Shown here piece by piece: positions 6,895 to 21,304 of a DNA stretch of 64,000 bases (position 1 is its first letter; every line of letters starts with the position of its first letter). Under the pieces are notes generated by a model. The model did not search any database. It was not told where the DNA came from and worked only from the letters and a program-made list of their open reading frames with translations. Location of the stretch: assembly GCA_016861205.1 (NCBI GenBank), contig BOKX01000001.1:988758-1052757 (forward strand), given 5' to 3'. The DNA is from Patescibacteria group bacterium (lineage in GTDB: Bacteria > Patescibacteriota > Microgenomatia > UBA1400 > PJMF01). The position numbers were made by a program, and so were the translations under genes.

Positions 6895-7650
6895 TTAGCG
6901 AAAACTGCTTTTTGGAGTGCTGTGCAAGAAGGTGCCGGTTGGGGTCAGGAGCTGCAGCTGTTCAGGGTAGGTGCTTTTGGGAGGTCCAAAAACGTTGATA
7001 ACGAGCTCGGCCTGCTGCAACACCGGCGGCAGGGGCAGTTGGTAGCCAAAAATGTGGGTGCAAATTTGCACGGTACCTTTTTCGGCTGCCTCGAGAATTG
7101 TTTGGCAGCTCACGATATCGTCATTGAGGTATCGAAGAGAGGTCCAGGTGGCAGGCAGGGTTTGTTGCAATTCGAGAAGTTGGCCAAGCAACTTCTGGTA
7201 TGAAAAGGCATCGTGAAGAACGATTTGCGGGAGAGCAGACTGTTTCTTTCGTAAAAGCAGCAGCAACTCTAGCCAAGCCAGACTCAAGCCGTTTCCTAAA
7301 ATGTCAATTTTTTTATCACCAACTTGCTCTACATGGTGCAGCAAAGTCGGCAGTTGCTCAATAGTTGCGGTCAATGTCCGGCGAGTGATGCCCAAACCAC
7401 CGATTTTTTCTCGACCGGCTGCCTTAGCAGCTATTTTATGTAGTTTCGAATCATCGTACGTGTGAATGTATTGTTGACTCAGGAAAAATGGATCATCAAT
7501 GTTGTCGAGGTACTCCAGCAATTCCTGCCGATTTGGCTCGCCCAACTCAACTTTGAAAGGGGCAAGCGTCAGACCGTAGCTGCCCTCATCGACACTGACT
7601 TGGACACTGCCTTCAGTATCAAGCAAACGGCGCTCACTAAGGGTGGGCAT
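6895..7650 (-). CDS. Hypothetical protein (251 aa) inserted between nusG and rplK; possible degenerate class-I methyltransferase fold
   Basis: ORF with weak motif-I-like KIDILGNGLS and a later acidic VLHDAF segment. No confident family assignment. Confidence 0.4.
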   Translation of the reverse strand: MPTLSERRLLDTEGSVQVSVDEGSYGLTLAPFKVELGEPNRQELLEYLDNIDDPFFLSQQYIHTYDDSKLHKIAAKAAGREKIGGLGITRRTLTATIEQLPTLLHHVEQVGDKKIDILGNGLSLAWLELLLLLRKKQSALPQIVLHDAFSYQKLLGQLLELQQTLPATWTSLRYLNDDIVSCQTILEAAEKGTVQICTHIFGYQLPLPPVLQQAELVINVFGPPKSTYPEQLQLLTPTGTFLHSTPKSSFR

Positions 7651-7659
7651 ACAGGAAAG

Positions 7660-8295
7660 TTAGACTTTTTGCACTTGCAAGAAGTCGAGTTCCACTGGGG
7701 TTTCGCGGCCAAAGATGCTGACCAGCACTTCGACTTTGCCTTTTTCTTCGTTGATGGTTTTGACTGTACCCAAGAAGTCGTTGAACGGGCCATCGACGAT
7801 GCGAACAGCTTCGCCTTCCACAAACTCGGCTTTGTATTGTGGCGTAGCCTGAGTCATGTACTTCTGGATAGCTTCCACTTCGTGGCGGGGCAGAGCGGTG
7901 GGTTTGTTGCCCATACCGACGAAGCCAGTCACGCCTTGAGTGGTGCGAACCGCTAACCATGAGGCGTCAGTCAGTTCCATTTGGACTAACATGTAGCCTG
8001 GGAAAATTTTCTCGTTCACGGTTTTGCGTTGACCACGTTTGATCTGAATTTTCTCTTGAGTTGGGATCAAAACAGCTAAGATGTAGTTGGTCAGGTTGAG
8101 GGTTTCAGCACGCTGCTTCAGAGTTTCAGCCACTTTGTTCTCATGACCTGAGTAGGTGTGCACCACGTACCAACGTGCTTTTTTGTTCTCAACAGGTGAG
8201 ATGACAATCATGTTGGGTGTGTTGACTTGCACTTCCTGAACTTCTGGTGGGGTGAGTGGTTCAGTGATGTCAGTGACAGGGGTGTTTTGATTCAT
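7660..8295 (-). CDS. nusG: Transcription termination/antitermination factor NusG
   Basis: NGN domain (RWYVVHTYSGHENKV…) and C-terminal KOW domain (GEAVRIVDGPFNDFLGTV). Start chosen at the ATG at 8295 (MNQNTPV…) so that it does not overlap secE; the ORF track extends to 8445. Confidence 0.85.
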   Translation of the reverse strand: MNQNTPVTDITEPLTPPEVQEVQVNTPNMIVISPVENKKARWYVVHTYSGHENKVAETLKQRAETLNLTNYILAVLIPTQEKIQIKRGQRKTVNEKIFPGYMLVQMELTDASWLAVRTTQGVTGFVGMGNKPTALPRHEVEAIQKYMTQATPQYKAEFVEGEAVRIVDGPFNDFLGTVKTINEEKGKVEVLVSIFGRETPVELDFLQVQKV

Positions 8296-8312: not shown

Positions 8313-8501
8313 TTAAACCTGAGTAATAAGTAAAGTAATGAGTCGCTGGAACACAAAGTCCAACGTTCCCACATACGCCCCAACGACTAAGCTGACGATT
8401 ACCACTAAAGCAGTCATTTCCCAGGTCTGTTGACGACTGGGCCAAGACACTTTTTGCAGTTCGGTCACGACTTCGCGGACGAATGTAGCAGGTTTGACCA
8501 T
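8313..8501 (-). CDS. secE: Preprotein translocase subunit SecE
   Basis: 62 aa with a single TM helix and the conserved SecE N-terminus (…ELQKVSWPSRQQT…). Immediately upstream of nusG. Confidence 0.8.
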   Translation of the reverse strand: MVKPATFVREVVTELQKVSWPSRQQTWEMTALVVIVSLVVGAYVGTLDFVFQRLITLLITQV

Positions 8502-8572: not shown

Positions 8573-10405
8573 TTAGGGATTTTGAGTGGGGGGTTGAATC
8601 CCGTGCTGGCGAATCCGATCCATCATGGTGGGGGTGGACTGCACGTTAATACTGGGACCAGCCGGTGGGGTGATTGGGGTGGCTGGCTGAACAGGTGTCA
8701 CAGGTGGAGGAGTGATCGGCTGAACAGGTGCCGTCACCGACGTAGTTGAGGTCATTGGAGCTGGGGTACCGCCAAAAGAAACGGGGGGTGGAGTTGGTCG
8801 TAAACCGCCAGTAGGAGGTACCAAGTTGCTTGGTGGTGAGACTTGATTTGACTGGAGCTTGTTAATCTTTTGCTGCAGTTGGGCCTCGTAGGCTGACGAC
8901 GTGGCTGCTCTGGTTCCAGATTGACCACCGCCACCGCCACCACCGCGGCGACGACGCATCAAAATGATAGCGAGGACGATGAGCAAGATTACTGCGCCCA
9001 GTCCCAGTCCGGCGATGCCCAAAATGCTGGGTGATAGACCGAATAGGCCACTGACAGTTTCATCGGGGAGCACGGGTTCACCTGGCAAGGTAGTGTCGGG
9101 CAGTTCACCGCCTGGCAACGAACTTGGTGAGGCGAAGACGAATGGAGTTGGACTCGGGAAACTGCTGGGTGCCACACTAGCTGTCCCAAACGGGTTGGTG
9201 GTGGGCGTGTTAGGAGTTACCACGGCTCCCTTGGGTGCAGTGGTTGTGCCCCCAAATGGGCTAGCCGGGCTACAGGTCGTACTACTGCTGTTGGTAGCCA
9301 AGCGGCAGCGACCACTGACACATCGGAGGTTGGTGGCACACTGGCTATTTGAACTACAGGCTTGGTTACAGCTACGAGCCATAGCTTGCTGCTGAGCTGC
9401 TGTAGGCGCAGAACAGCTGGTGTTGTCTGGATTGTCTGGGCGACGGCAGCGGTTGAAGTAGCAGGTGTAGCTGTTACCACACTCATTACTGTCGGCACAG
9501 TACTCGTTACACTGGCGGTTAAGACCTTGGTCCGCTGGGGCGGCGCAGGTGCTGCTGCCAGTATTGGTTGCTAGGCGACAGCGACCTTCGAAACACCGCA
9601 GCTCGCTAGCACACTCACTATTGCTGCTACAGGTTTCATTACAAACCTTCAAAGTAGTGCCACCAGTTCCTGGAGTGGCCGATGGCGAAGGTGAGGGAGA
9701 GGGTGAGGGACTAGCCTGTGTTTCTGGACTGGGAGTAACTTGAGTACTTGGTGATGGGGTTGGGCTGGGTGTGGGATCAGCAGCGGCTACTACAGTATAG
9801 GTAGAAGCAGCTGCGGTTCGCAAAATATCCTCAGGCGGATTGGCGTTGAAACCAGCTACCAACGAACCATTGGGATCCATAGTTATAGTCAATGAACCAG
9901 CTTGGGTGGGAGTGAAGGTCAACCGAGCCACTGGTTGGGCTGTCGTAGTGGTGAACGGCTGACCAAAAGTTGCCGGCAGGGCCAAAATTCGGACACGAAA
10001 CCCACCGTTTTGCGGAGTAGCTTCAGCCAAAGCGCTCGTTAAGCCACTACTGGTAATCACGCTCGCTGACAGTTGATTGGTGACGTCAGTGTTGACGTTG
10101 AGTGTGAGTTCAACACCGGACGTTTGGGCACCTTGGGTGTTAATGGTTAGATCTATGTTGGTTTCTTGGCCGACCGTCAAATTAGTACTGGTGCCAGGGG
10201 AAACACCCATAGTAACTGTGCCGGTGTCACTAGAAGCAGCCCGGCGTAGATCTTGAGAATCTTGAAGTGGTTTCTGGACCAACAATAAACTTGCCGCACC
10301 AACTACCAACGCCAATCCACCCAAAGCACTGGCTACAAGACCCATCGACTTGGTCCAGGGGCGTTTCTTGACGTGGATGATCTGGTCTTTGACGCTGATT
10401 TCCAT
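8573..10405 (-). CDS. Membrane-anchored surface protein. Order of elements: N-terminal signal/anchor, cohesin-like beta-sandwich region, Pro/Ser linker, three 6-Cys repeats, TM helix, poly-Arg/Gly stretch, Pro-rich cytoplasmic tail.
   Basis: The N-terminus has a hydrophobic segment. A region of about 150 aa (LTVGQETNIDLTINTQG…LTITMDPNGSLVAGFN…TYTVVA) has the alternating strand pattern of cohesin domains. The PSPTPSPS linker is followed by 3x [C-x3-C-x5-C-x5-C-x4-C-x9/10-C]. Then comes a TM helix (ILGIAGLGLGAVILLIVLAIILM), then RRRRGGGGGGG, then a PPxTP-rich tail. Confidence 0.55.
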   Translation of the reverse strand: MEISVKDQIIHVKKRPWTKSMGLVASALGGLALVVGAASLLLVQKPLQDSQDLRRAASSDTGTVTMGVSPGTSTNLTVGQETNIDLTINTQGAQTSGVELTLNVNTDVTNQLSASVITSSGLTSALAEATPQNGGFRVRILALPATFGQPFTTTTAQPVARLTFTPTQAGSLTITMDPNGSLVAGFNANPPEDILRTAAASTYTVVAAADPTPSPTPSPSTQVTPSPETQASPSPSPSPSPSATPGTGGTTLKVCNETCSSNSECASELRCFEGRCRLATNTGSSTCAAPADQGLNRQCNEYCADSNECGNSYTCYFNRCRRPDNPDNTSCSAPTAAQQQAMARSCNQACSSNSQCATNLRCVSGRCRLATNSSSTTCSPASPFGGTTTAPKGAVVTPNTPTTNPFGTASVAPSSFPSPTPFVFASPSSLPGGELPDTTLPGEPVLPDETVSGLFGLSPSILGIAGLGLGAVILLIVLAIILMRRRRGGGGGGGQSGTRAATSSAYEAQLQQKINKLQSNQVSPPSNLVPPTGGLRPTPPPVSFGGTPAPMTSTTSVTAPVQPITPPPVTPVQPATPITPPAGPSINVQSTPTMMDRIRQHGIQPPTQNP

Positions 10406-10407
10406 AC

Positions 10408-11832
10408 TTAACTTTGGGCCCTGAAGGCAGTTACTAAAATTGTGTAATCCAAGATATTAATAACATTATCACAGTTTAGGTCGGCGGCGCTGCTAGCATT
10501 TCCACCAAGGTAAGCAGTAATAAGAGCGGTGTAGTCAAAGAGATTCACTCGGCCATCGCCAGTAATATCAGCCGTCTTGTTGCAGGTACCAGGACTGGCG
10601 CTAGGACTTGGATTCAAGCTTGGGCTGGGGCTAGGGTTGGCTGAAGCTGGTGGGGTAGGACAGGGTAAGAACTGACAGTTACGAGTTGCACTACGGCTGA
10701 CAAAGCTGCCATCTGGACATTGGAAAACATCAGCTGGACAAACCACTGGGCTGGGGCTAGGACTGCTGCTGACAATGATGCTCGGCGAAGGAATGACACT
10801 GGCTGACTGGAGGAACGGTGTTAGGCGAGCGTTAGTCAAGTTAATGGTACCCACAATTGCGCTTTGGTTATCAGAGGTCAAGCTAAGGGTGGGGTAGATG
10901 ACTGGATTGCCGATGGCGTGACTGCCGAAAGCATTACCACTGTAAAAGAGCCAACCACCTGGGTTTTGGCCGTTATAGGTCCGGACTTCGCTGACACTCC
11001 ATGTGTTGTTAACACGTTGGAAGTATATAAAGAGACGCATCTCAACACCTTGCTCTTGCCAGATCATTTCGAGGGTTTGGTTGCTACCGCTGCCTGGATT
11101 GCTTGATACTTGGAAAGCAGTGCCATTATCTGGAATACCGTGGAACGTTCGGTTGCCAATCTGGAGGTTGAAGTCATCAGCCACTAAGCGAGCGTACTGT
11201 GTCTCCCAAATAGCCGCGTGCACGATTGGTGAGGCGCTGGGTGAGGGAGTGGGTGCGGCGACGTTGAACGTGTACTGAGCAGTAAATACACTGCGGAGAA
11301 TGTCTTGGAGTGTGCTGTGTTCGATAGCTTTGCTTTGGCTGGCAGTAGGTTCTGGAACCAAGGTAAAAGAACCGGAAGCTGGGGCGGCATACGATAACGT
11401 GCCGACTGTTACATAGCTGGTACTCGAAAAAGGTTGCGTTGGGTTTTTGGTAATTAACCCTAATCTCAGATAGATGCCATTCTCTGAAGTGGTGATCTGA
11501 GGATTGGCTAGATCGAAGCGACCTGTGCTGACTGGAGTAAACGTCATTGGTGTGGTTGGATAGGTGCCGGTCATGTTGTACACCAACTGCAGACCATCTA
11601 TCTGTCGACCACCAGTGTTGACCTGAAGATTGGTAGTGATAGTTTGGCCGGGGGTGCCGGTTTGGTTGTTGGAGTTCCAGCGGACTTGAACAGGTCCTTG
11701 AGAAACACTAGCTTGATTGCGTGTGTCTTGACTAAAACGACTTAGGAAAACAGCAGCCATTAAACCCAGTAGTAATAGTAGTACTAAACTACCCATCACT
11801 ACCATGCGGAGTGGGATCTTCATGCGGCGCAT
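10408..11832 (-). CDS. Secreted protein with a C-terminal type-I dockerin domain. Also has an N-terminal cohesin-like region and a 4-Cys module.
   Basis: Signal peptide (MRRMKIPLRMVVMGSLVLLLLLGLMA). The C-terminus DITGDGRVNLFDYTALITAYLG…DLNCDNVINILDYTILVTAF contains two 22-residue Ca-binding dockerin repeats (D-x-N/T-x-D-G-x-V-N-x2-D-x-T-x-L). The preceding module is VVCPADVFQCPDGSFVSRSATRNCQFLPCP. Its stop is 3 nt from the next gene, so the two are likely an operon. Confidence 0.6.
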   Translation of the reverse strand: MRRMKIPLRMVVMGSLVLLLLLGLMAAVFLSRFSQDTRNQASVSQGPVQVRWNSNNQTGTPGQTITTNLQVNTGGRQIDGLQLVYNMTGTYPTTPMTFTPVSTGRFDLANPQITTSENGIYLRLGLITKNPTQPFSSTSYVTVGTLSYAAPASGSFTLVPEPTASQSKAIEHSTLQDILRSVFTAQYTFNVAAPTPSPSASPIVHAAIWETQYARLVADDFNLQIGNRTFHGIPDNGTAFQVSSNPGSGSNQTLEMIWQEQGVEMRLFIYFQRVNNTWSVSEVRTYNGQNPGGWLFYSGNAFGSHAIGNPVIYPTLSLTSDNQSAIVGTINLTNARLTPFLQSASVIPSPSIIVSSSPSPSPVVCPADVFQCPDGSFVSRSATRNCQFLPCPTPPASANPSPSPSLNPSPSASPGTCNKTADITGDGRVNLFDYTALITAYLGGNASSAADLNCDNVINILDYTILVTAFRAQS

Positions 11833-11964: not shown

Positions 11965-12858
11965 ATGTCTGATACTCGTCGTGTTCGCAAAGCCATTATC
12001 ACTGACGCCGGTTTTGCGAGTCGTTATCTGCCTATCACCAAAACCATCCCCAAGGCTATGTTGCCACTCGGCAATCGGCCGATCATGCAGTTTGTAGTTG
12101 AAGAGTGTGTGGAAGCTGGCATCGAAGAGATTATTGTAGTGGCCACACCCGAAGGTAAGCCAATTTACGAAGACTACTTCAACAACAACGTCAACCGGAT
12201 TCGCAAGCAGCTGTCTGCTCAAGGCAAAGAGGACCGCTACGAGCCAGTTCAACATGTCTTAGATTTCCCGAAGATCGTGGTGATTGAGCAAGATCCCAGT
12301 TTGCCGTACGGCAATGGTTCACCCGTGGCTTCAGCCCAAAAGTTTGTGGAGGGTGAAGAAGCTTTTCTGGTTTTGTATAGTGACGACGTAGTGTTTGGTA
12401 CCCCAGGAGACGCCAAAGTTTTGGTTGATCTTTACGAGCAAAACCCCAATGTCGAGGGTATTATTATGGCTCAAGAAGTTAGCCCCGAGGTGGTAGATAA
12501 GTACGGCATTATTTCCTTTAAAGCTGGTTCTGATCGCGAGCTCGATAACATTATTGAAAAGCCTGATAAAGGCACCGAGCCTTCACGATTGGCTTCTTAC
12601 GGTCGTTATTTAGTTAAGCCATCGATTTTCGAGCACCTGAACCCCACCAACTTGGGTAAAGATGCTGAACTCTGGACTGTTGATGCCATCACCAAGATCG
12701 CTGCGACCAAAACTGTTTTGGTGGAGAAGACTCAAGCCATGTGGATGACCACCGGCGACCCAGAAAACTACTTCAAGGCTCACATGATGTTTGCCTTGCA
12801 GCATGAGAAGTACGGCAGCAAAATTGGGGATTGGCTCAGTGAGCTCAGCTCTAGTTAA
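11965..12858 (+). CDS. galU: UTP--glucose-1-phosphate uridylyltransferase
   Basis: N-terminal KAIITDAGFASRYLPITKTIPKAMLPLGNRPIMQ is the GalU nucleotide-binding signature. Length is about 297 aa. SD GAGGAG sits 6 nt upstream. Confidence 0.9.
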   Translation: MSDTRRVRKAIITDAGFASRYLPITKTIPKAMLPLGNRPIMQFVVEECVEAGIEEIIVVATPEGKPIYEDYFNNNVNRIRKQLSAQGKEDRYEPVQHVLDFPKIVVIEQDPSLPYGNGSPVASAQKFVEGEEAFLVLYSDDVVFGTPGDAKVLVDLYEQNPNVEGIIMAQEVSPEVVDKYGIISFKAGSDRELDNIIEKPDKGTEPSRLASYGRYLVKPSIFEHLNPTNLGKDAELWTVDAITKIAATKTVLVEKTQAMWMTTGDPENYFKAHMMFALQHEKYGSKIGDWLSELSSS

Positions 12859-21079: not shown

Positions 21080-21304
21080 ATGAAACCACCTTCTACCCAG
21101 TGGCAAGTTGTAATTGTGCTCATCATAGTTGCCTTAATCGGCGCAGTCGTTGTTGTGGGGGGACTAGGGATTGGTACACAGTCCCGTCCAGTTCCGCCGG
21201 GCCCAAAAGGAGAGGTTGGCTGCACACTCGAGGCCAGAATTTGTCCTGACGGGACCGCGGTTGGCCGCAGTGGTCCAAACTGTGAGTTCGCGCCTTGCCC
21301 ATGA
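21080..21304 (+). CDS. Small membrane-anchored protein carrying the same 4-Cys module as the dockerin protein
   Basis: N-terminal TM helix (VVIVLIIVALIGAVVVVGGLGIG), then GCTLEARICPDGTAVGRSGPNCEFAPCP. Compare VCPADVFQCPDGSFVSRSATRNCQFLPCP at 10408..11832. Confidence 0.45.
   Translation: MKPPSTQWQVVIVLIIVALIGAVVVVGGLGIGTQSRPVPPGPKGEVGCTLEARICPDGTAVGRSGPNCEFAPCP

What the first reader, a model, noticed from the sequence alone, without database searches (positions are those of the whole stretch)
8573..11832. Adjacent dockerin-bearing secreted protein and membrane-anchored cohesin-like protein: a minimal cohesin-dockerin surface module
The upstream gene (10408..11832) ends in two textbook type-I dockerin Ca-binding repeats (DITGDGRVNLFDYTALITAYLG / DLNCDNVINILDYTILVTAF). 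Both this protein's N-terminal half and the downstream protein (8573..10405) contain regions of about 150 aa with a cohesin-like strand periodicity. The two genes are 3 nt apart on the same strand, so they are probably co-transcribed.

The second protein is a type-I membrane protein: cohesin-like domain, PS linker, 3x 6-Cys repeats, TM helix, then an Arg/Gly stretch and a Pro-rich cytoplasmic tail. A small-genome bacterium with an rpl/nusG core and few biosynthetic genes would have little use for a cellulosome. More plausibly this is a cohesin-dockerin-type protein-protein attachment device, for example for host or partner-cell adhesion or surface-layer assembly. The Pro-rich cytoplasmic tail could transmit a signal.
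Basis: partly seen in the sequence, partly recalled or inferred. Interest (0 to 1): 0.8.

Follow-up and report, generated by a model that had tools for sequence, protein, structure and literature searches.

The report
Cohesin-dockerin surface cassette in Patescibacteria
Two adjacent genes of a tiny-genome (Patescibacteria/CPR) bacterium encode a dockerin-tipped surface protein and a membrane-anchored protein with a highly divergent cohesin domain, and the same pair recurs in many relatives with proteases or glycan-degrading enzymes on the dockerin, so it is probably how these bacteria hang proteins on their surface.

Summary

B then has a Pro/Ser linker, three invariant 6-Cys modules, a transmembrane helix and a conserved cytoplasmic tail.

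The pair is not an accident. In 22 of 32 non-redundant loci from related bacteria, a dockerin gene sits directly upstream of the B homologue. That homologue usually lies just upstream of secE-nusG-rplK-rplA. Dockerin cargo in relatives includes a GH5 cellulase, a pectate lyase, papain-like and M64-like peptidases, and PKD/CARDB modules.

Distances between B's cohesin-like domains track those of the adjacent dockerins after controlling for species distance. B's Cys region shows no such link.

Best reading: a membrane-anchored, single-cohesin anchoring scaffoldin plus exchangeable dockerin cargo. Binding itself is untested. It is a new variant of a known kind. Open points are a shared N-terminal leader (TM helix + QDxRxxA) and the function of A's middle domain.

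The parts
10408..11832 (-). Gene A: 474-aa dockerin-bearing modular surface protein (leader, cohesin-like domain, middle domain, 4-Cys module, dockerin)
   Evidence: ORF found. Modules defined. An identical protein is on record as P0001.
11743..11802 (-). A: N-terminal hydrophobic helix (aa 11-30), either a signal anchor or an unusually long signal peptide
   Evidence: Read directly from the sequence. AlphaFold2 predicts a helix at aa 8-31.
11710..11733 (-). A: conserved post-helix leader motif SQDTRNQA (family pattern Q[DE]xRxxA)
   Evidence: The same motif occurs in B and in most cassette dockerin proteins of related loci.
11257..11700 (-). A: cohesin-like beta jelly-roll domain (aa ~45-192), paralogous to the one in B
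10813..11220 (-). A: uncharacterised all-beta middle domain (aa ~205-340; motifs ADDF, SDPG, YTTLE, EMRLxIYF, RTYNG)
   Evidence: pLDDT >90. Most of the 150 listed relatives in the 1.84-billion-protein search match through this domain (about 125 sequences cover it). No Pfam or PDB sequence match. The same domain is fused to dockerins in L010, L018, L020, L021 and L033.
10660..10740 (-). A: 4-Cys module CPADVFQCPDGSFVSRSATRNCQFLPC (aa 365-391)
   Evidence: Position. It recurs, often in tandem, in other proteins. The model confidence is low here.
10420..10590 (-). A: type I dockerin (aa 415-471; Pfam match aa 421-466), with Ca loops at 10531..10569 and 10444..10482
   Evidence: Pfam PF00404 at 27.5 bits, above the 22.9 cut-off. 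My own dockerin HMM gives 8e-21. AlphaFold2 predicts two helices, aa 431-443 and 460-473, at pLDDT ~95.
8573..10405 (-). Gene B: 610-aa membrane-anchored cohesin-like protein, the proposed anchoring scaffoldin
   Evidence: ORF found. It belongs to a family of 87 clusters sharing the same architecture.
10277..10345 (-). B: N-terminal hydrophobic helix (aa 21-43), preceded by a K/R-rich N-terminus
10235..10255 (-). B: leader motif QDLRRAA (family consensus SQDxRxQAS)
9785..10234 (-). B: cohesin-like domain (aa ~58-207)
   Evidence: AlphaFold2 with a 40-sequence alignment gives pLDDT 94.1 and pTM 0.87. Foldseek against PDB gives mostly cohesins among the top hits (E down to 4.4e-6, TM up to 0.75). 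No Pfam Cohesin hit. Its pairwise distances co-vary with those of the adjacent dockerins.
9659..9778 (-). B: Pro/Ser/Thr-rich linker (aa 210-249)
   Evidence: Read from the sequence. Its length varies across the family.
9272..9643 (-). B: three 6-Cys modules (aa 255-287, 299-331, 346-378), pattern C-x3-C-x5-C-x5-C-x4-C-x10-C
   Evidence: All 18 Cys are invariant or nearly invariant in 37 family members. There is no PDB sequence match. The only Pfam match is a sub-threshold Dumpy DPY hit.
8957..9025 (-). B: C-terminal transmembrane helix (aa 461-483)
   Evidence: It is followed by RRRRGGGGGGG, consistent with the positive-inside rule.
8576..8956 (-). B: cytoplasmic tail, containing the R/G stretch, a conserved YExxLQxKIxxLQ helix (8852..8890), a Pro-rich spacer and a conserved C-terminal motif PTMMDRIRQHGIQPP (8588..8632)
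   Evidence: Family alignment, (M594 nearly invariant). Composition.
8313..8501 (-). secE, 71 nt downstream of B; part of the conserved context (secE-nusG-rplK-rplA)
   Evidence: Pfam SecE, 67.5 bits. Synteny shown.
11965..12858 (+). Divergent NTP_transferase gene, the conserved upstream boundary of the cassette
   Evidence: Pfam NTP_transferase. Found at the same position in most related loci.

Best explanation
A and B form a two-gene cohesin-dockerin surface-display cassette typical of a Patescibacteria (CPR) lineage.

B is the anchor. A C-terminal TM helix and a conserved cytoplasmic tail hold it in the membrane. Outside the membrane it carries a stalk of three disulfide-rich 6-Cys modules and a Pro/Ser linker, topped by a single, highly divergent cohesin domain.

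A is exported and carries a C-terminal type I dockerin. That dockerin binds, Ca2+-dependently, to the cohesin-like domain of B and tethers A's cargo at the cell surface. The cargo is a second cohesin-like domain plus an uncharacterised beta domain. Because A has its own cohesin-like domain, it can act as an adaptor that recruits a further dockerin.

In relatives the same anchor gene is preceded by dockerin proteins with hydrolytic or Ig-like cargo, so the cassette is a general display platform with exchangeable cargo.

Shown: domain identities, folds, conserved gene pairing, cargo diversity, and domain-specific co-variation.

Inferred: physical dockerin-cohesin binding, topology (whether the leader is cleaved), and biological role (nutrient scavenging versus adhesion).
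For: - Dockerin: Pfam hit above threshold, and the expected two-helix fold.
- Cohesin fold in B: the B domain model has pLDDT 94.1, and its Foldseek top hits are almost all cohesins.
- Homology to cohesins: A and B N-terminal domains are paralogous. A is collinear with P0165 and P0124, whose equivalent N-terminal domains are Pfam Cohesin at E = 2e-10 and 1.6e-11. NCBI names P0165 a cohesin domain-containing protein of Ca. Levybacteria.
- Conserved pairing: a dockerin gene lies directly upstream on the same strand in 22 of 32 non-redundant loci, with gaps mostly of 2-63 nt.
- Cargo diversity, as expected of cohesin-dockerin systems: GH5; Peptidase_C1, Peptidase_M64-like, pectate lyase, PKD and CARDB.
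- Co-variation: the partial correlation between cohesin-like-domain distances and adjacent-dockerin distances, given NusG+RplK distances, is 0.49 (p = 3e-4; rank version 0.38, p = 5e-3). For the Cys region of the same protein it is about 0.01-0.07 and not significant.
- Architecture: the B family has an invariant two-hydrophobic-segment architecture with 18 Cys.
Against: - Neither domain, nor any of the 40 family members scanned, reaches Pfam Cohesin.
- Profile links to true cohesins are weak: PDB 5m2s E = 0.21; P0078 cohesin iE = 2e-3; hhalign probability 22% over 41 columns.
- P0078 carries both this domain and a canonical Pfam cohesin, so the two may not be functionally equivalent.
- 10 of 32 loci lack an adjacent dockerin gene.
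- No complex could be modelled. The full-length A model has pTM 0.44, so it says nothing about the dockerin docking on A's own cohesin-like domain.
- If the N-terminal helix is not cleaved, the cohesin-like domain sits about 15 residues from the membrane, which is awkward for display.
- Mantel-type tests on 15-17 related loci can be inflated by shared phylogeny.
Confidence: 0.6

Rival explanations
1. The shared N-terminal beta domain is a cohesin-fold structural or ligand-binding module, for example a membrane-proximal base or a glycan or cell-wall binder. It is not the dockerin receptor. A's dockerin would bind a canonical cohesin encoded elsewhere in the genome, or a non-protein ligand. B would be an unrelated envelope protein that merely shares the operon.
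For: - No Pfam Cohesin hit.
- P0078 has this domain plus a separate Pfam cohesin.
- The domain always sits directly after the leader helix in both A-like and B-like proteins, which suggests a position-specific role.
- 10 of 32 loci have the B homologue without an adjacent dockerin gene.
Against: - The conserved tight pairing argues against it.
- So does the dockerin co-variation being specific to this domain and absent for the Cys region.
- No other cohesin-like or dockerin ORF occurs in the 64-kb window.
- In homologous architectures (P0124, P0165, P0076) a canonical cohesin occupies exactly this position.
Confidence: 0.2
2. The system is mainly an adhesion or filament device rather than an enzyme display. 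A carries both a cohesin-like domain and a dockerin, so it polymerises head-to-tail on the B anchor. The resulting extracellular fibre exposes the aromatic-rich middle domains, which bind host or partner-cell glycans.
For: - A has a cohesin-like domain and a dockerin in one chain.
- The middle domain has no catalytic signature, has invariant Trp/Tyr residues, and is very common in this lineage.
- PKD and CARDB cargo occurs in relatives.
- Cultivated Patescibacteria (mostly Saccharibacteria) grow as epibionts, and the authors speculate that an essential dockerin-domain protein in Southlakia targets host-cell glycans for adhesion or degradation (PMC10633639).
Against: - Self-association is untested.
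- Many cassette cargos in relatives are hydrolases.
- Glycan binding by the middle domain is pure inference.
- The Southlakia protein lies in a different genomic context.
Confidence: 0.12
3. B is mainly a transmembrane receptor. Ligand or dockerin engagement outside the cell is relayed through the TM helix to the conserved cytoplasmic tail, which recruits an intracellular partner.
For: The tail motifs are conserved across the family: YExxLQxKIxxLQ and C-terminal SSMxDRxKxKGI, with a nearly invariant Met.
Against: - There is no recognisable signalling domain.
- The tail is mostly low-complexity Pro-rich sequence of variable length.
- There is no conserved adjacent regulator. The two-component genes near L004 are not conserved elsewhere.
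Confidence: 0.06
4. The adjacency and the resemblance are coincidental: two unrelated secreted proteins, with a generic beta-sandwich mistaken for cohesin.
For: Beta-sandwich folds are common. Lower-ranked fold hits include integrin, CARDB, pilin and LAMP domains.
Against: - Cohesins dominate the top of three independent fold searches.
- The pairing recurs in 22 of 32 loci.
- Collinear homologues with Pfam cohesins exist.
Confidence: 0.02

Closest known systems
Cellulosomal anchoring scaffoldins with type I cohesin-dockerin pairs (e.g. Clostridium thermocellum OlpA/OlpC, PDB 3ul4 and 4dh2; CipA cohesin-Xyn10B dockerin, 1ohz)
   Same: A cell-bound protein with a cohesin jelly-roll captures proteins that end in a duplicated Ca-binding type I dockerin. 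Pro/Ser/Thr linkers separate the modules. Cargo is exchangeable and includes glycoside hydrolases in relatives.
   Different: - The cohesin is too divergent for Pfam PF00963.
- There is a single cohesin and no CBM.
- Anchoring is by a TM helix plus cytoplasmic tail, not by SLH domains or sortase.
- The stalk is made of three 6-Cys modules.
- The organism is a ~1.15-Mb (contig length) Patescibacteria genome.
- A in this window carries no recognisable enzyme.
Non-cellulosomal cohesin-dockerin pairs (Clostridium perfringens GH84/GH33 toxin complexes, PDB 2jh2, 2vo8, 2ozn; Archaeoglobus fulgidus cohesin, 2xdh; survey by Peer et al. 2009, cited in PMC10066038 and PMC9012536)
   Same: Cohesin and dockerin modules are used outside plant-cell-wall degradation to assemble extracellular proteins. 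The C. perfringens cohesin-like modules are the best Foldseek matches of B's domain.
   Different: Those systems are not organised as a conserved two-gene cassette next to secE-nusG. They lack the TM/Cys-module anchor and the shared QDxRxxA leader.
Dockerin/cohesin proteins of ANME archaea (PMC9012536) and the non-cellulosomal dockerins of Omnitrophota giant proteins (PMC10066038)
   Same: Uncultivated, partner-dependent microbes with many dockerin and/or cohesin proteins, proposed to attach functional proteins to the cell surface or to mediate cell-cell contact.
   Different: The lineages and architectures differ. In those cases the domains are detected by standard models, and no conserved anchor-cargo gene pair has been described.
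Essential dockerin-domain envelope protein SEML1_0315 of the saccharibacterium Southlakia epibionticum (PMC10633639)
   Same: A dockerin-annotated envelope protein in a Patescibacteria epibiont, which the authors speculate targets host glycans.
   Different: It is a 927-aa protein next to a tRNA gene and an alpha/beta-hydrolase gene, not in the NTP_transferase/secE-nusG context. No cohesin partner was reported for it. Homology to A or B was not tested here.

Membership tests
Type I dockerin (Pfam PF00404) | Match to the family HMM above the curated threshold | tested here: met
   A aa 421-466 scores 27.5 bits against a cut-off of 22.9, E = 3.6e-6. B has no hit.
Type I dockerin (Pfam PF00404) | Tandem duplication of a ~22-residue segment, each with an EF-hand-like Ca loop (Asp/Asn at positions 1, 3, 5, 9, 12) followed by a helix | tested here: met
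   The loops are DITGDGRVNLFD and DLNCDNVINILD. Position 3 of loop 1 is Thr rather than Asn/Asp. AlphaFold2 predicts helices at aa 431-443 and 460-473 with pLDDT ~95.
Type I dockerin (Pfam PF00404) | Ca2+-dependent folding and binding to a cohesin | not testable with these tools
   Needs biochemistry or multimer modelling.
Cohesin (Pfam PF00963) | Match to the family HMM above the curated threshold | tested here: not met
   No hit for A or B at E <= 1. No hit for any of the 40 aligned family domains.
Cohesin (Pfam PF00963) | Nine-stranded flattened beta jelly-roll superposable on solved cohesins | tested here: met
   [not shown]
Cohesin (Pfam PF00963) | Detectable sequence homology to bona fide cohesins | tested here: inconclusive
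   Weak links, aligned in register:
- PDB 5m2s, E = 0.21.
- Profile of the B-type domain against the P0078 cohesin, iE = 2.3e-3.
- hhalign probability 22% and 65% to P0076.

A is collinear with P0124 and P0165, whose equivalent domain is Pfam Cohesin. However, A's domain alone gives no phmmer hit to them.
Cohesin (Pfam PF00963) | Binds a dockerin | not testable with these tools
   Only indirect support is available: conserved adjacency and domain-specific co-variation with the neighbouring dockerin.
Cellulosome (multi-enzyme scaffoldin system) | Primary scaffoldin with several cohesins and a cellulose-binding CBM | tested here: not met
   B has one cohesin-like domain and no CBM hit.
Cellulosome (multi-enzyme scaffoldin system) | Dockerin-borne plant-cell-wall hydrolases | tested here: not met
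   In this window A has no catalytic domain. It is the only dockerin ORF in the 64 kb. Relatives do have GH5 and pectate-lyase dockerin proteins, and also proteases.
Cell-surface anchoring scaffoldin | Cohesin protein fixed to the cell by SLH domains or a sortase LPXTG signal | tested here: not met
   B has no SLH hit. Instead it has a C-terminal TM helix with an Arg-rich stop-transfer sequence and a cytoplasmic tail. The mode of action is analogous but the anchor differs.

The most novel reading that the evidence does not exclude
The cassette may define a previously unrecognised Patescibacteria envelope system with three linked features. First, substrates would be marked by a lineage-specific N-terminal sorting leader (TM-length helix + Q[DE]xRxxA). 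Second, they would be processed and then assembled through an orphan cohesin subfamily into head-to-tail cohesin-dockerin chains or fibres on a Cys-knot stalk. Third, the anchor's conserved cytoplasmic tail would couple the surface assembly to an intracellular partner. Its fixed position in front of secE-nusG would then reflect co-regulation with the secretion and ribosomal core.
Probability: 0.15. Interest if true: 0.8.

Novelty: new variant of a known kind. Interest (0 to 1): 0.6.

Why it matters
Patescibacteria (CPR) make up a large share of bacterial diversity. They appear largely dependent on other organisms (the few cultivated members grow as epibionts), yet how they equip their cell surface is largely unknown.

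This cassette gives a concrete, testable mechanism: one membrane anchor with an orphan cohesin, plus interchangeable dockerin-tagged proteins. The dockerin-tagged proteins include proteases, glycanases, Ig-like modules and a very common domain of unknown function.

It also shows that standard domain models miss a whole cohesin subfamily, so cohesin-dockerin systems are probably under-counted in metagenomes.

Finally, it offers a small, orthogonal cohesin-dockerin pair, possibly disulfide-stapled, for protein engineering.

Tried and rejected
1. Word-index homologue search with full-length A found only A itself and P0002. Searching with the middle domain alone found one hit. The exhaustive HMMER search was needed to find relatives.

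2. Profile-versus-PDB searches gave nothing significant for the cohesin-like domain, the middle domain or the 6-Cys region. Enterotoxin and VPS26 hits at E > 0.02 were dismissed as chance.

3. Pfam scans of 40 cohesin-like domains and 27 middle domains gave only scattered sub-threshold hits.

4. NCBIfam gave only a sub-threshold 'GC-type dockerin' hit for A and a meaningless internalin hit on B's PS linker.

5. Attempts to link A's N-terminal domain directly to the Pfam-positive cohesins of P0124 and P0165 by phmmer/HMM failed. hhalign gave only 22% probability. Homology therefore rests on fold, collinearity and weak in-register matches.

6. The promoter/terminator scan was no better than shuffled sequence and says nothing about operon structure.

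8. I checked whether the essential Southlakia dockerin protein sits in the same context. It does not.

9. Four full-text searches of the held library found no paper describing this cassette.

10. No multimer prediction was possible. The full-length A model (pTM 0.44) gives no usable inter-domain information.

Full report
**Observation**

The two minus-strand ORFs are as described: A = 10408..11832 (474 aa) and B = 8573..10405 (610 aa). They are separated by TAA-GT-ATG, a 2-nt gap.

Downstream on the same strand lie secE (8313..8501), nusG (7660..8295), an unknown 251-aa ORF, rplK and rplA. Upstream and divergent lies an NTP_transferase gene (11965..12858).

Pfam finds Dockerin_1 in A at aa 421-466, at 27.5 bits against a cut-off of 22.9.

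B has no Pfam or NCBIfam family.
- a Pro/Ser linker;
- three 6-Cys modules (18 Cys);
- a TM helix at aa 461-483;
- RRRRGGGGGGG, then a tail with 19.5% Pro.

**The cohesin question**

The N-terminal ~150-aa regions of A and B are paralogous: 27% identity over 184 columns, E = 1e-11.

Neither region matches Pfam Cohesin. Nor does any of the 40 related domains I aligned (A1). A profile of A1 against PDB sequences gives only a weak match to a Ruminococcus cohesin (5m2s, E = 0.21).

Structure prediction is clear.
- B aa 53-215, modelled with the 40-sequence alignment, gives pLDDT 94.1 and pTM 0.87, and is all-beta.
- Foldseek against the PDB returns cohesin modules for most of the top hits. These include 2jh2, 2vo8, 6kg8, 1g1k and 4dh2, with E down to 4.4e-6 and target-normalised TM up to 0.75.
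- Full-length A, modelled with a 66-sequence alignment (pLDDT 84.3), has two confident beta domains and a two-helix dockerin.
- Its Foldseek top 50 are almost all cohesins.

There are also sequence bridges.
- P0124 and P0165 are collinear with A across the leader, N-terminal domain and middle domain. BLASTP of A against P0165 gives 27% identity over 438 columns, E = 4e-27.
- Their N-terminal domains are Pfam Cohesin, at E = 1.6e-11 and 2e-10.
- NCBI names P0165 a cohesin domain-containing protein of Candidatus Levybacteria.
- Domain-only comparisons are marginal.

I conclude that this is a divergent cohesin subfamily. The fold is shown. Homology is likely but not proven by sequence statistics.

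**The family and its context**

B belongs to a family of 87 clusters with one architecture:
- a K/R-rich N-terminus and a 20-23-residue hydrophobic helix;
- a conserved SQDxRxQAS motif;
- the cohesin-like domain and a variable PS/PT linker;
- 18 invariant or nearly invariant Cys;
- a second TM helix and an Arg-rich stop-transfer sequence;
- a YExxLQxKIxxLQ helix, a Pro-rich spacer and a conserved C-terminal SSMxDRxKxKGI motif.

A scan of species-representative genomes returned 31 loci. Their titles name Patescibacteria, Paceibacterota and Woesebacteria; several titles appear to be mislabelled.

I scanned all ORFs of these loci with my own HMMs. The order is strongly conserved: NTP_transferase (divergent), then 0-4 dockerin genes, then the B homologue, then secE-nusG-rplK-rplA.
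- In 22 of 32 non-redundant loci with enough upstream sequence, a dockerin gene lies directly upstream on the same strand. The gaps are mostly 2-63 nt.
- nusG follows the B homologue in 27 of 36 loci.

The dockerin proteins vary widely in size and content, as expected for exchangeable cargo:
- a GH5 cellulase;
- a papain-family protease, an M64-like metalloprotease, a pectate lyase, and PKD and CARDB modules;
- A's own middle domain, in L010, L018, L020, L021 and L033;
- in some loci, little more than a leader plus a dockerin (L011, 131 aa).

**Test of a specific cohesin-dockerin link**

I compared pairwise distances across 15-17 loci. Distances between B's cohesin-like domains correlate with distances between the adjacent dockerins.
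- Controlling for NusG+RplK distance, the partial r is 0.49 (permutation p = 3e-4).
- The rank version gives 0.38 (p = 5e-3).
- Dropping the closest quartile of species pairs still gives 0.38 (p = 0.011).
- The Cys-module region of the same protein shows no such relation (0.01-0.12, not significant).
- The cohesin-dockerin correlation survives conditioning on the Cys region.

This supports co-evolution of exactly the two modules proposed to bind. It is not proof. The sample is small, and Mantel-type tests can be inflated by shared ancestry.

**The other modules of A**

The middle domain (aa ~205-340) is modelled at pLDDT >90. It has invariant aromatic residues. It is the most widespread part of A. 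The exhaustive search found 1764 relatives of A at E <= 1e-3, and most of the 150 listed match through this domain. About 35 of those also end in a dockerin. It has no Pfam or PDB sequence match.

The 4-Cys module (aa 365-391) recurs in tandem arrays in other proteins.

A subset of these dockerins, including A's, has a Cys before loop 1 and a Cys at position 4 of loop 2. This pair may form a disulfide staple.

**Mechanism**

The best-supported reading is a membrane-anchored, single-cohesin anchoring scaffoldin (B) that captures dockerin-tagged exported proteins. In this genome the captured protein is A, which has its own cohesin-like domain and so could act as an adaptor.

What remains inferred:
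- the binding itself;
- the topology;
- the biological role.

On topology: the N-terminal helices are of TM length, and the conserved Q[DE]xRxxA motif after them is shared by B and by most cassette cargo proteins. If this leader is cleaved, the cohesin sits at the tip of a Cys-module stalk, which is ideal for display. If it is not cleaved, B is anchored at both ends and the cohesin lies close to the membrane.

For this particular genome, A carries no recognisable enzyme, so binding or adhesion remains plausible.

**Comparison with what is known, and novelty**

Cohesin-dockerin pairs outside cellulosomes are established. Examples are the survey by Peer et al. 2009, cited in PMC10066038 and PMC9012536; the C. 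perfringens and Archaeoglobus structures among my top fold hits; and the ANME archaea.

A dockerin-domain protein has been noted as essential in the saccharibacterium Southlakia (PMC10633639). It lies in a different genomic context.

Four full-text searches found no description of this cassette.

Relative to known systems, the following are new:
- an orphan cohesin subfamily invisible to Pfam;
- a TM plus cytoplasmic-tail anchor in place of SLH domains or sortase;
- a 3 x 6-Cys stalk;
- a shared N-terminal leader motif;
- a conserved position in front of secE-nusG.

I rate it a new variant of a known kind, with interest 0.6.

Noticed in passing
window 11710..11733 and 10235..10255 (minus strand); also L006, L010, L011, L018, L020, L022, L023, L026, L027 and others: A, B and most cassette dockerin proteins in relatives share an N-terminal leader. 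It is a 20-23-residue hydrophobic helix followed, after 3-8 residues, by Q[DE]xRxxA[ST]. It occurs even in proteins without the cohesin-like domain, for example a papain-like protease in L026 and a 131-aa leader-plus-dockerin protein in L011. No Pfam or NCBIfam model matches it. It could be a lineage-specific sorting or cleavage signal.
   Followed up: partly
window 8588..8632 and 8852..8890 (minus strand): The otherwise low-complexity cytoplasmic tail of the B family carries two conserved motifs: YExxLQxKIxxLQ and a C-terminal SSMxDRxKxKGIxxP with a nearly invariant Met. This suggests an unknown intracellular partner.
   Followed up: partly
[not shown]
   Followed up: partly
window 10660..10740 (minus strand); window 21080..21304 (plus strand): The 4-Cys module CPxxxxxCPDGSxVxRxxxxxCxFxPC of A recurs up to ten times in tandem in other proteins (e.g. 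P0178, P0105). A weak copy (E = 3e-5) lies in a 74-aa ORF elsewhere in the window.
   Followed up: no
window 10555..10587 and 10444..10482 (minus strand); L006, L010, L011, L029: A subset of these dockerins has one Cys a few residues before Ca loop 1 and another at position 4 of Ca loop 2 (A: C417 and C454). This is a candidate disulfide staple not typical of clostridial dockerins.
   Followed up: partly
window 6895..7650 (minus strand): A 251-aa ORF with no Pfam hit is wedged between nusG and rplK, which are usually adjacent. In L004 a different 360-aa gene on the opposite strand occupies the same position.
   Followed up: no
L002 6440..9797: A GH5 cellulase with a dockerin lies divergent from P0078. 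P0078 combines the leader, the orphan cohesin-like domain, a canonical Pfam cohesin, a 6-Cys module and a dockerin. This locus is not next to secE-nusG.
   Followed up: partly
L017 5604..13264; L026 1939..10166: Some loci have expanded cassettes. In L017 the B homologue is flanked by one dockerin gene upstream and three downstream. L026 has three dockerin genes and two Cys-module TM proteins in a row.
   Followed up: no
L008, L010, L011, L015, L016, L018, L021, L023, L025, L026, L029, L033 (record titles): Many public MAG records that carry this Patescibacteria-type cassette are titled 'uncultured Pseudomonadales bacterium' or 'Limisphaerales bacterium'. These titles appear to be taxonomic mislabels.
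   Followed up: no
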